A stretch of DNA of 64,000 nucleotides from Escherichia coli (GCF_041886205.1 NZ_CP169031.1); one strand, 5' to 3'. Shown: positions 54,293 to 55,569, counted from the stretch's first letter. Notes: a model not told the origin generated them from the sequence alone. A program made the numbers and translations.

Positions 54293-55267
54293 TTATCCGT
54301 TACCGCACGACGGTTTCTGCGTGATAAACGTCTCAAGCATCTTTTCCGCAATTGCCGACCAGGTGTGACACTGGACCTTTTCAGCATTTTTCACGCGATC
54401 AACGCGAGCAATAACCTCATCCCAATCAATCCGCGACTTGATAACCATATGGTTCACCAAAGCCAGGCGATCTGGCGGAAGGCAATCGGGAGGCGTTAAT
54501 ACCAACGCCCCGCACATTGCCGCCTCAAGTACAGTTAATCCAAGGCTTTCGGGATGCGTAACGATAAAAACGTCACTCTTACGCAATTCAGCTGCAAATT
54601 CGGTTGCTGGCACCGGCGTCCGCCTGTATGGAGTTACCGAAATATTCCCCGGATCAATGGTAACCAATCCGTCATCAGTCAACGTTCTGGCCTCATACGG
54701 AACGGTCAGACGCTGAAGGTTCATAAGGATACTTAAGGAGTGATCAAAACCACTAACATCAAATGCAGCGTGGTCTACAAAAATACGCAGAACATCGTCC
54801 GTTTTGGTTTCCAGATGGAACAGCTCCTGATTCGCTGCCCATCCAACATGTTTGTTAAAGCGATTATGACGTTCTAACCGACCGGGATTATCCAGGTACC
54901 GCCAGGTATCATCGCGGACAGTAAAAGTAATATCGACTGGTGCCGAATCCAGCATAGAACCGTCATATACCTGGGCTACCCATCCAGAGAATCGGCGACA
55001 CAGTTGCATGCCTATTTCCCTGGGTACCGTAGTAAAATACCTCAATCCTGGTGCCAAAATGGCCTTCGCAGAACATGCTGTCGCAGCAGTCAACACAGCT
55101 TCAACATAATCCTCGGGGCTTTCGACGCCAGGGGAATATGGACGATGGTATTGCAATGTTACCCCAGCCTCACTAAAGGCGCAGGCCAGGTTGTAAGCCC
55201 ACATTTCCGTATATGTTTTCACATCACTGATAGCTTCAAATTTTCGCCCAATGATCAGGATGTTCAT
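54293..55267 (-). CDS. Glycosyltransferase (GT-B fold, family 1/4-like)
   Basis: 324 aa; C-terminal motif VTHPESLGLTVLEAAMCGALVL resembles the EX7E sugar-donor motif region of GT1/GT4 enzymes. Confidence 0.6.
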   Translation of the reverse strand: MNILIIGRKFEAISDVKTYTEMWAYNLACAFSEAGVTLQYHRPYSPGVESPEDYVEAVLTAATACSAKAILAPGLRYFTTVPREIGMQLCRRFSGWVAQVYDGSMLDSAPVDITFTVRDDTWRYLDNPGRLERHNRFNKHVGWAANQELFHLETKTDDVLRIFVDHAAFDVSGFDHSLSILMNLQRLTVPYEARTLTDDGLVTIDPGNISVTPYRRTPVPATEFAAELRKSDVFIVTHPESLGLTVLEAAMCGALVLTPPDCLPPDRLALVNHMVIKSRIDWDEVIARVDRVKNAEKVQCHTWSAIAEKMLETFITQKPSCGNG

Positions 55268-55569
55268 TGCGTCTCCTTTTCCCTGACTAAAAGCTCATCC
55301 AGCTTGCTTTTATGTTTGAGCACATAGCCACATATTTTTCCTTTGGAGCTAATTTGCGGAATGGAATAATATTCCGAAAATACTAATTCAGCCTTTTCTA
55401 AGACAAGTGAAACACCATAGCGCGCAACATGTCTGTCGATCATTTTTGCATCACTGAGATTACCTTTAATTGATAGCCAGTCGTTGAGGTACATATGGTT
55501 GCGATTGGCTTTTTTCAGCATGTCGCTCAACCAATTTTTATTACGCTTAGTTAGTTTCCGTTGCATCAA
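55264..55569 (-). CDS. Hypothetical protein downstream of ban
   Basis: 101-aa ORF overlapping ban stop and glycosyltransferase start. Confidence 0.5.
   Translation of the reverse strand: MMQRKLTKRNKNWLSDMLKKANRNHMYLNDWLSIKGNLSDAKMIDRHVARYGVSLVLEKAELVFSEYYSIPQISSKGKICGYVLKHKSKLDELLVREKETQ

What the first reader, a model, noticed from the sequence alone, without database searches (positions are those of the whole stretch)
54293..55569. Glycosyltransferase in the ban operon
A GT-B-type glycosyltransferase (motif VTHPESLGLTVLEAAMCGALVL) and a 101-aa unknown lie directly downstream of ban in the C1-repressible tRNA-tci-ban operon. This is an odd context for a sugar transferase; it could mediate lysogenic conversion of surface polysaccharide for superinfection exclusion, or modify DNA or protein.
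Basis: partly seen in the sequence, partly recalled or inferred. Interest (0 to 1): 0.4.

Follow-up and report, generated by a model that had tools for sequence, protein, structure and literature searches.

The report
P1 dbn glycosyltransferase plus small insert
The sugar transferase is real, but it is the already annotated phage P1 gene dbn; its function is untested, and here it proves to be one part of a four-enzyme sugar-adding gene set shared by many phages, not a partner of the helicase gene ban.

Summary

The small ORF (100 aa from ATG 55566) lies in a 288-bp segment that the P1, P7 and RCS47 references lack. About 15-18% of P1-like elements carry it. It belongs to a tiny uncharacterised family with no known fold. 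Its distant relatives follow Ban-like helicases that have no dbn after them, so it is unrelated to Dbn.

The context is explained by a gene set. In every non-P1 phage context examined, Dbn homologues sit beside homologues of P1 PmgQ (GT8-like). Four of these contexts also have PmgO and PmgP (MptE/WaaZ/CstII-like) in one contiguous cassette. In P1 the cassette is split across the tail operon. The closest cellular homologue lies in a Kdo capsule locus.

Both halves are controlled by the C1 repressor, and in other phages the cassette sits in late-gene regions. This argues against classical lysogenic conversion. The acceptor is unknown; I favour LPS core or another envelope glycan remodelled during lytic growth. 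The gene is known, and interest is modest.

The parts
54293..55267 (-). dbn: 324-aa GT-B (GT4-like, retaining-type) glycosyltransferase with EX7E motif E240...E248
55264..55566 (-). orf100: small basic protein (pI 9.8) of unknown function, phrog_12809. Its start overlaps the ban stop (TGATG) and its stop overlaps the dbn start (ATGA).
55268..55555 (.). 288-bp, 39% G+C segment present here but replaced by 13 bp in the P1, P7 and RCS47 references
   Evidence: Present in 52 of 283 matching PLSDB plasmids and 12 of 80 IMG/VR P1-like loci; only two junction types occur.
54246..54272 (-). hairpin terminator ending the ban operon, placed between the convergent dbn and tail gene 5
   Evidence: Fold -17.6 kcal/mol, z -4.62; sequence.
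55566..56936 (-). ban: DnaB-type replicative helicase
   Evidence: Pfam DnaB_C E 1e-107; P1 ban synteny.
57217..57292 (-). tRNA with CAT anticodon (ARAGORN calls it Met; P1 annotates it as tRNA-Ile2)
58929..59082 (-). tRNA-Thr and tRNA-Asn at the head of the operon
59738..59765 (.). bivalent C1 repressor operator Oban (Op72a/b) overlapping the ban promoter
   Evidence: Exact and 2-mismatch matches to the C1 operator consensus; identical to P1 (P1 annotation).
47696..48358 (-). pmgO: MptE/DUF115-like putative CMP-ulosonic-acid (Kdo-type) transferase, partner of Dbn in other phages
47172..47798 (-). pmgP: paralogue of pmgO (hhalign probability 96.7%) and the most conserved member of the cassette
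46498..47190 (-). ppp: metallophosphoesterase inserted between pmgP and pmgQ in P1-type genomes. It is absent from the cassette in the other phages, so it is not a cassette member.
45800..46501 (-). pmgQ: GT8-like GT-A glycosyltransferase with DxD motif (DLD 79-81), partner of Dbn
49406..49422 (+). C1 operator (P1 O26/Op82) at the divergent 26 / pmgL promoters that head the pmgL-pmgQ transcription unit

Best explanation
The 324-aa protein is P1 Dbn, a soluble GT-B glycosyltransferase of the retaining GT4 type. It should bind an NDP-sugar through its C-terminal domain, with E240 and E248 forming the EX7E motif.

Dbn is not functionally tied to the Ban helicase. It is the optional fourth enzyme of a portable phage glycan-building cassette. 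The other members are PmgO and PmgP (paralogous MptE/WaaZ/CstII-like enzymes, probably CMP-Kdo-type transferases) and PmgQ (GT8-like, with a DxD motif). In P1-type genomes the cassette has been split. pmgO-pmgP-(ppp)-pmgQ lie on one side of the tail/baseplate operon. dbn lies on the other side, in the variable cargo slot at the end of the ban operon.

Both halves are controlled by the C1 repressor, so the enzymes are made after induction or infection and not in the lysogen. Together they most likely assemble a short Kdo-plus-hexose glycan. My preferred acceptor (inferred, not shown) is the LPS core or another envelope glycolipid at the cytoplasmic face of the inner membrane. That would change the LPS-core receptor during the lytic cycle and could limit superinfection and the loss of progeny phage to cell debris.

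The adjacent 100-aa ORF is a separate accessory gene. It is translationally coupled to ban, was probably ancestral at this position and later deleted in the P1 reference, and its function is unknown.
For: Shown by the tool results:
- Identity with P1 dbn, P7 glt and the RCS47 GT4 annotation.
- GT-B fold and EX7E motif.
- Dbn homologues are contiguous with PmgO, PmgP and PmgQ homologues in a lambdoid phage (L009), a P2-like phage (L010), Escherichia phages EP_H11 and IME392, and a phage contig with a T4-type spanin (L178). In large phages they are adjacent to PmgQ-like genes (L005, L007, L179). In a Citrobacter phage-plasmid they are on the same replicon (L004).
- All 22 phage records with a Dbn hit also have PmgP and PmgQ hits.
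- The window itself encodes PmgO, PmgP and PmgQ at 45.8-48.4 kb.
- Partner families: the PmgQ profile matches GT8 structures (E 1.3e-5). PmgO and PmgP match Pfam MptE-like weakly but consistently and are paralogues of each other.
- The 40%-identical cellular homologue lies in the serotype-specific region of a capsule locus: KpsM, KpsT, KpsE, KpsF, a WaaZ-like protein, the Dbn-like gene, KdsA and KdsB.
- Lytic-phase expression is supported by the intact Oban and Op82 operators. It is also supported by the cassette's position after Rz and before terS in phiNP, before the terminase in L009, and after the portal gene in L010. dbn is transcribed during P1vir infection.
- dbn, pmgO, pmgP and pmgQ are all dispensable for plaque formation, as expected for accessory genes.

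Inferred rather than shown:
- Kdo as the donor for PmgO and PmgP.
- LPS core as the acceptor. PhiNP, which carries pmgO, pmgP and pmgQ, adsorbs to an LPS outer-core glucose (PMC6456863). From established knowledge, P1 and P2 also adsorb to the LPS core.
Against: - No biochemical or phenotypic data exist for any of the four proteins.
- Dbn is acidic (pI 5.5, including its N-terminal domain) and has no membrane-binding segment, unlike many lipid-acceptor GT4 enzymes.
- The matches of PmgO and PmgP to WaaZ and CstII are below significance: hhalign probability 7.6% against WaaZ, and E about 0.1 against CstII.
- The cassette exists without Dbn in JK004, phiNP, XacN1 and phi456. Dbn's step is therefore optional.
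- The cassette also occurs in lytic jumbo phages next to methyltransferases, a pyruvyl transferase and a nucleotidyl-sugar enzyme. That context fits virion glycosylation equally well.
- Predicted sigma-70 promoters inside ban (P1 annotation) could give some dbn expression in lysogens.
Confidence: 0.45

Rival explanations
1. Virion glycosylation. The four enzymes, made in the lytic phase, decorate capsid, tail or fibre proteins of the phage with a short glycan, as phage-encoded glycosyltransferases do in mycobacteriophages. This would alter particle stability, adsorption or immune recognition.
For: - Late or lytic expression, and placement next to structural genes: the two halves flank the P1 tail operon, and the cassette sits beside the terminase or portal gene in L009, L010 and phiNP.
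- MptE-like enzymes include the Maf flagellin glycosyltransferases, which act on proteins (family knowledge; Pfam hits).
- Jumbo-phage versions sit in larger glycan clusters.
- Dbn is soluble and acidic.
Against: - The same cassette is carried by phages with unrelated virion proteins (P1-like, lambdoid, P2-like, about 111-kb phages). A common protein acceptor is therefore not obvious.
- The main text of the P1 virion proteome paper does not mention glycosylation or these genes.
- The closest cellular homologue is in a polysaccharide locus, not a protein-glycosylation locus.
Confidence: 0.2
2. Lysogenic conversion. Dbn, alone or with partners, is expressed from the prophage and alters LPS or another surface polysaccharide of the lysogen to exclude superinfecting phages.
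For: - The GT4, GT8 and WaaZ-like enzyme families are the kinds that build the LPS core.
- The P1 annotation lists predicted sigma-70 promoters for dbn inside ban.
- Hosts of cassette-bearing phages use the LPS core as receptor (plus established knowledge for P1 and P2).
Against: - The ban operon and the pmgL-pmgQ unit both carry C1 operators, which are intact here.
- In other phages the cassette lies within late-gene regions.
- My promoter scan found no excess of promoter-like sites: 3 found against 8.6 expected.
- No Gtr-type membrane components are present.
Confidence: 0.12
3. Nucleic-acid or replication-linked function. Dbn glycosylates phage DNA (or a tRNA of the operon), or works with Ban and the 100-aa protein as a replication accessory.
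For: - Operon membership with ban and three tRNAs.
- Jumbo-phage homologues lie near helicase and RecA genes.
Against: - No Dbn homologue outside P1-type genomes is next to a DnaB gene.
- Distant P1-like elements keep ban plus an orf100 homologue but have no dbn at that position.
- GT4 enzymes acting on small molecules and lipids score higher than the DNA glucosyltransferase.
- From established knowledge, P1 DNA is not known to carry glycosylated bases.
Confidence: 0.06

Closest known systems
Phage P1 Dbn (YP_006544; 'downstream of ban', possible glycosyltransferase), P7 Glt and the RCS47 GT4 family protein
   Same: 98-99% amino-acid identity, same position after ban and before the convergent tail gene 5, same operon.
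   Different: Here the gene starts at the ATG that corresponds to codon 9 of the P1 annotation, because a 100-aa ORF sits between ban and dbn. All other family members also start at this Met. The 8-residue N-terminal extension in the P1 annotation is therefore probably a remnant of the orf100 start.
CAZy GT4 retaining GT-B glycosyltransferases (sucrose-phosphate synthase, BshA, GlgM, PimA, PimB', WaaG, WaaB)
   Different: Only 8-15% identity. Dbn is shorter (324 aa). Pfam Glycos_transf_1 is below its cut-off, and the N-terminal Glyco_transf_4 model is not matched. Donor and acceptor are unknown.
Serotype-specific (region 2) glycosyltransferases of ABC-transporter-dependent, Kdo-containing capsule loci
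   Same: The closest cellular homologue (40% identity) lies between KpsMTEF and KdsA/KdsB, beside a WaaZ-like protein. The phage cassette pairs a Dbn-type enzyme with MptE-like enzymes in the same way.
   Different: The phage cassette carries no export genes and no Kdo-synthesis genes. It adds a GT8-like PmgQ that the capsule locus lacks.
E. coli LPS-core enzymes WaaZ (KdoIII transferase), WaaJ/WaaO (GT8) and WaaG (GT4)
   Same: Among 13 K-12 Waa proteins, each cassette profile picks the expected family member: PmgO and PmgP pick WaaZ, PmgQ picks WaaJ, and Dbn picks WaaG.
   Different: Scores are very low (4-15 bits), and hhalign probability is 7.6% for PmgP against WaaZ. This is family-level resemblance only, not orthology.
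Phage Gtr-type O-antigen glucosylation (lysogenic conversion) and T4 DNA glucosyltransferases
   Same: They are phage-encoded sugar transferases, and T4 AGT shares the GT-B fold.
   Different: Gtr systems use membrane GtrA and GtrB plus a GT-C-type enzyme expressed from the prophage. T4 enzymes need hydroxymethylcytosine DNA. Neither feature is present here, and the operon is C1-repressed.

Membership tests
P1 Dbn orthologue group (phrog_2518) | High identity over full length, and synteny ban - dbn - convergent gene 5 | tested here: met
   98.5% aa identity to P1 Dbn. phrog_2518 E 2e-233. Synteny shown.
GT-B fold glycosyltransferases | Two Rossmann-like domains with an inter-domain cleft | tested here: met
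CAZy GT4 / Pfam Glycos_transf_1 | EX7E motif in the C-terminal domain | tested here: met
   E240-S-L-G-L-T-V-L-E248. Both glutamates are invariant in 64 family members, and the motif aligns to the ES.GL..LEA motif of PDB 8xsg.
CAZy GT4 / Pfam Glycos_transf_1 | Score above the curated Pfam gathering threshold | tested here: not met
   25.1 bits against a cut-off of 26.4, covering only residues 221-307. There is no Glyco_transf_4 N-terminal hit. NCBIfam gives only E>0.01 hits.
CAZy GT4 / Pfam Glycos_transf_1 | Demonstrated retaining transfer from an NDP-sugar | not testable with these tools
   No biochemical data were found.
PmgO-PmgP-Dbn-PmgQ phage glycosylation cassette (defined here) | Dbn homologue adjacent to, or on the same replicon as, PmgQ, PmgO and PmgP homologues | tested here: met
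   Contiguous in L009, L010, L097 (and IME392) and L178. Adjacent to PmgQ-like genes in L005, L007 and L179. Same replicon in L004 and in all P1-type genomes, including this window. 22 of 22 Dbn-positive phage records also hold PmgP and PmgQ.
Lysogenic-conversion glycosyltransferases (Gtr-type) | Expression from the repressed prophage | tested here: inconclusive
   The operon carries an intact bivalent C1 operator, and there is no excess of promoter-like sites. The internal promoters predicted in the P1 annotation are untested.
Lysogenic-conversion glycosyltransferases (Gtr-type) | Membrane components GtrA and GtrB plus an integral-membrane serotype-specific transferase | tested here: not met
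   Dbn is a soluble GT-B protein. No gtrAB-like genes were found among its neighbours.
Phage DNA glucosyltransferases (T4 AGT/BGT type) | Closest structural similarity to DNA glucosyltransferases, and linkage to hypermodified-base synthesis | tested here: not met
WaaZ-type Kdo transferases (for partners PmgO and PmgP) | Significant match to the WaaZ_KDO_III or MptE-like models | tested here: inconclusive
   Pfam MptE-like gives E 6e-5 to 3e-4, below the cut-off, in all members scanned. hhalign against K-12 WaaZ gives probability 7.6%. The WaaZ model hits only the capsule-locus neighbour (E 4e-5).

The most novel reading that the evidence does not exclude
P1 and many other phages of Gram-negative bacteria carry a portable cassette, expressed in the lytic phase, of two Kdo-transferase-like enzymes, a GT8 and (optionally) the GT4-like Dbn. 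The carriers include lambdoid, P2-like, about 111-kb coliphages and jumbo Xanthomonas and Stenotrophomonas phages. The cassette would rebuild the host LPS core, which is the receptor of several of these phages, during infection. This would be a receptor-masking strategy distinct from Gtr-type lysogenic conversion. Several P1 'putative morphogenetic' genes (pmgO, pmgP, pmgQ) would then be glycan enzymes rather than assembly factors.
Probability: 0.3. Interest if true: 0.55.

Novelty: already known. Interest (0 to 1): 0.3.

Why it matters
On its own the finding re-discovers an annotated but uncharacterised P1 gene. The useful addition is that dbn should be studied together with pmgO, pmgP and pmgQ. 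The four genes form a conserved glycosyltransferase cassette that is widespread in phages of Gram-negative bacteria: the PmgP family alone has more than 660 sequence clusters.

This gives a concrete, testable hypothesis for four P1 genes that have carried placeholder names since 2004. It also suggests that the single-gene knock-downs reported so far (all non-essential) looked at the wrong phenotype. If the cassette remodels LPS or virions, that would matter for P1 transduction efficiency, for phage-plasmid ecology and for phage host-range engineering.

Tried and rejected
- Anti-defence role: PADLOC gave no hit for either protein.
- orf100 function:
  - Pfam and NCBIfam gave only chance-level hits.
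  - Exhaustive HMMER over 1.8 billion representative proteins found only 6 relatives.
  - A helix-rich N-terminal half followed by a beta sheet suggested a winged-helix domain, but no structural match supports that.
- Functional link between orf100 and Dbn: rejected, because orf100 relatives occur after Ban-like helicases that have no dbn. In addition, 82-85% of P1-like elements have dbn without orf100.
- Co-loss test: the distant P1-like element on contig PQJV01000018 lacks dbn after ban. It still has a PmgP homologue on a contig of the same length (P0127). Dbn loss is therefore not coupled to loss of the cassette.
- Two IMG/VR scans meant to collect diverse Dbn loci returned almost only P1-like contigs. 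They were useful only for counting junction types.
- Rfam found only the three tRNAs in 53-61 kb. The 'dicF-like region' of the P1 annotation did not reach the DicF threshold.
- Literature searches for dbn, pmgO/P/Q, hdmB-D and WaaZ with prophage found no functional study. The 2004 P1 genome paper is not held.

Full report

The region is part of a P1-like phage-plasmid (genus Punavirus). Window 49200-55267 aligns to phage P1 (NC_005856) at 99.1% and 55556-57536 at 98.7%. A 361-bp probe across the ban/dbn junction is 100% identical to many E. coli plasmids.

On the minus strand the genes run as follows:
- C1 operator Oban (59738-59765, identical to P1)
- tRNA-Asn and tRNA-Thr
- the tci genes
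- tRNA(CAT)
- ban (55566-56936; DnaB and DnaB_C domains)
- a 100/101-aa ORF (55264-55566/55569)
- a 324-aa ORF (54293-55267)

A strong hairpin (54246-54272, -17.6 kcal/mol, z -4.6) separates the operon from the convergent tail gene 5.

**The glycosyltransferase is P1 Dbn**

The 324-aa protein is 98.5% identical to P1 Dbn, which P1 annotates as "function unknown, possible glycosyltransferase". P7 names the same gene Glt, and RefSeq calls it "glycosyltransferase family 4 protein" in RCS47.

By sequence alone the family assignment is marginal. Pfam Glycos_transf_1 scores 25.1 bits against a cut-off of 26.4 and covers only residues 221-307. NCBIfam gives nothing significant.

Both glutamates are invariant across the family, together with D102, W143, D165, H166, D175 and H238.

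Published genome-wide CRISPRi data list dbn as non-essential for P1 plaque formation (PMC10695390). It is transcribed during P1vir infection (bioRxiv 2025.12.28.696737). I found no functional study.

**The small ORF is an indel allele, unrelated to Dbn**

Window 55268-55555 (288 bp, 39% G+C against 48-49% for its neighbours) replaces 13 bp of the P1, P7 and RCS47 references.

The ORF is neatly coupled on both sides. Its ATG overlaps the ban stop (TGATG) behind an AAGAGGA Shine-Dalgarno sequence. Its stop overlaps the dbn start (ATGA) behind AAGGAG.

Only two junction types occur. The long one is found in 52 of 283 matching PLSDB plasmids and 12 of 80 IMG/VR P1-like loci.

The P1 junction keeps the first 11 nt (ATGCAAyGGAA) and a GGAAAAG...ATGAAC stretch from the end of the segment. 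All non-P1 Dbn homologues start at the Met used here. I therefore read the P1 state as a deletion. The 8-residue N-terminal extension in the P1 Dbn annotation would be a remnant of that deletion.

The protein is basic (pI 9.8) and belongs to phrog_12809, a family of unknown function. An exhaustive search of 1.8 billion representative proteins found only six relatives.

Two of those relatives (43% and 35% identity) lie directly after, and overlap the stop of, Ban-like helicases (76-81% identical to Ban). They are in distant P1-like elements that have no dbn at that position. A third relative is in an unrelated phage context.

My conclusion is that orf100 is a real accessory gene linked by position to ban, of unknown function, and independent of Dbn. 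The stretch downstream of ban is a variable cargo slot. In the relatives it holds NinX, an S24 peptidase and other small genes instead.

**Why a sugar transferase sits there: a split four-gene cassette**

I looked at where Dbn homologues (74 clusters) are encoded. None is next to a DnaB gene. Instead they are embedded among homologues of three P1 proteins encoded 6-9 kb away in this same window: PmgO (47696-48358), PmgP (47172-47798) and PmgQ (45800-46501).

The gene orders found are:

| Context | Arrangement |
|---|---|
| Lambdoid phage L009 | pmgO-pmgP-(189 aa)-dbn-pmgQ, just upstream of the terminase |
| P2-like phage L010 | pmgO-pmgP-dbn-pmgQ, after the portal gene |
| Escherichia phages EP_H11 and IME392 | pmgO-pmgP-dbn-pmgQ in EP_H11; pmgP-dbn-pmgQ in IME392 (pmgO not searched there) |
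| Phage contig L178 | dbn-pmgO-pmgP, with pmgQ on the opposite strand |
| Large phage contigs L005, L007, L179 | dbn with a PmgQ-like gene adjacent (L005, L007) or one gene away (L179), plus between them GT8-like and GT47-like genes, a pyruvyl transferase, methyltransferases and a cytidylyltransferase-cupin enzyme |
| Citrobacter phage-plasmid L004 | pmgO, pmgP, pmgQ and pmgS together, with dbn 5 kb away |

In the curated phage collection, all 22 records with a Dbn hit also have PmgP and PmgQ hits. PmgP and PmgQ occur without Dbn in JK004, phiNP, phi456, XacN1 and Xoo-sp13. The PmgP family is much larger (668 or more clusters) than the Dbn family. Dbn is therefore an optional add-on to a PmgO/P/Q core. 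In P1-type genomes the cassette is split across the tail operon 26-25-7-24-6-5. A phosphatase gene (ppp) is additionally inserted between pmgP and pmgQ.

**What the partners are**

- PmgQ has a DxD motif, and its profile matches GT8 structures: Skp1 alpha-galactosyltransferase at E 1.3e-5, and glycogenin at about 5e-3.
- PmgO and PmgP are paralogues (hhalign probability 96.7%). They carry a GxGPS...NG...NSG...G(Y/V)D pattern.
- PmgO and PmgP hit Pfam MptE-like weakly but consistently. PmgO's N-terminus resembles the CstII sialyltransferase (E about 0.1). RefSeq already labels PmgO "alpha-2,3-sialyltransferase" and PmgQ "glycosyltransferase".
- Among the K-12 Waa proteins, each profile picks the expected relative: PmgO and PmgP pick WaaZ, PmgQ picks WaaJ, and Dbn picks WaaG. 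The scores are very low, so this is family-level resemblance only.

The best clue to the chemistry is the closest cellular Dbn homologue (40% identity). It lies in the serotype-specific part of an ABC-transporter capsule locus. KpsM, KpsT, KpsE and KpsF lie upstream. A WaaZ-like protein sits just before it (one 64-aa ORF between). Kdo-8-phosphate synthase follows it directly, then CMP-Kdo synthetase. There, a Dbn-type enzyme works beside an MptE-like Kdo transferase in a Kdo-containing glycan.

**Timing and likely mechanism**

Both halves of the P1 cassette are controlled by C1. The Oban operator is intact. The pmgL-pmgQ unit has Op82 and a late promoter.

In other phages the cassette lies in late-gene regions: between Rz and terS in phiNP, before the terminase in L009, and after the portal gene in L010. 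My promoter scan shows no excess of promoter-like sites in the operon. This points to action during lytic growth and argues against classical lysogenic conversion.

The steps I regard as shown are:
- the GT-B fold
- the EX7E motif
- cassette membership
- C1 control
- dispensability for plaque formation

The inferred steps are:
- PmgO and PmgP add Kdo-type sugars from CMP-Kdo.
- PmgQ and Dbn add hexoses.
- The acceptor is the LPS core or another envelope glycolipid.
- The benefit is receptor masking against superinfection and against loss of progeny to debris.

Circumstantial support for the LPS reading is that phiNP adsorbs to an LPS outer-core glucose (PMC6456863). From established knowledge, P1 and P2 also adsorb to the LPS core.

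Against it:
- Dbn is acidic and has no membrane-binding feature.
- The Kdo assignment rests on weak matches.
- Jumbo-phage versions sit in larger glycan clusters that would fit virion glycosylation equally well.

I put the cassette membership at about 0.85, lytic-phase action at about 0.7, and the LPS or envelope acceptor at about 0.35-0.4. The main rival is virion glycosylation, at about 0.2.

**Verdict**

The added value is the link between dbn and pmgO, pmgP and pmgQ. I did not find this link in the searchable literature, and it turns four placeholder-named P1 genes into a testable glycosylation module. Interest is modest (0.3). If the lytic-phase LPS-remodelling reading proved true, I would rate it at about 0.55.

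Noticed in passing
window 45800-48358 (-): P1 'putative morphogenetic' genes pmgO, pmgP and pmgQ look like glycosyltransferases: two MptE/CstII-like paralogues and a GT8-like enzyme. They form a cassette found in many unrelated phages. The 'morphogenetic' label, propagated in databases with the typo 'norphogenetic protein', is probably wrong.
   Followed up: partly
window 46498-47190 (-): The ppp metallophosphoesterase sits between pmgP and pmgQ in P1-type genomes. It is absent from that position in Cronobacter phage JK004, phiNP, L009, L010 and EP_H11, so it looks like an insertion into the cassette.
   Followed up: partly
L001 6069-6092 (P1 reference) versus window 55260-55570: The annotated 332-aa P1 Dbn begins 8 codons upstream of the start used by all other family members. 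Those codons look like the fused ends of a deleted orf100.
   Followed up: yes
window 57536-58127: About 590 bp covering tciA (a TerB-like 144-aa ORF at 57567-58001) and its upstream region has no BLAST match to the P1 reference. The allele may be the P7-type terB (also 144 aa).
   Followed up: no
window 59556-59575 (-): A strong terminator-like hairpin (GCCCATCTTCGGGTGGGC followed by T8) lies between the C1-controlled ban promoter and the first tRNA, inside what P1 annotates as a 'dicF-like region'. Rfam did not call DicF at the gathering threshold. How transcription reads through to ban and dbn was not examined.
   Followed up: partly
window 57217-57292 (-): ARAGORN calls the CAT-anticodon tRNA Met, whereas the P1 annotation calls it tRNA-Ile2 (an ileX homologue, which needs lysidine modification).
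   Followed up: no
L099 10001-20330 (distant P1-like element, contig PQJV01000018): Downstream of ban this relative carries an orf100 homologue, NinX, two small ORFs and an S24 peptidase instead of dbn. It also has a HicAB toxin-antitoxin pair, a Tad2-like gene and a RecA-dependent nuclease where P1 has pmgL and the genes after it. Both ends of the tail operon are therefore cargo hot spots.
   Followed up: partly
L011 1-11319 (metagenomic contig ERR11525566_1336): This is a complete-looking Kdo capsule locus: KpsM, KpsT, KpsE, KpsF, a GT1-like gene, two unknown genes, a WaaZ-like gene, a 64-aa ORF, the Dbn-like gene, KdsA and KdsB. Its serotype-specific enzymes are uncharacterised. It is a possible evolutionary source of the phage cassette.
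   Followed up: partly
window, 14 sites (for example 12515, 28214, 28297, 43640, 45733, 45782, 49406, 59738, 59749, 63271): There are 14 matches to the 17-bp C1 operator consensus at up to 3 mismatches, against 0.34 expected by chance. This maps the C1 regulon of the element.
   Followed up: no
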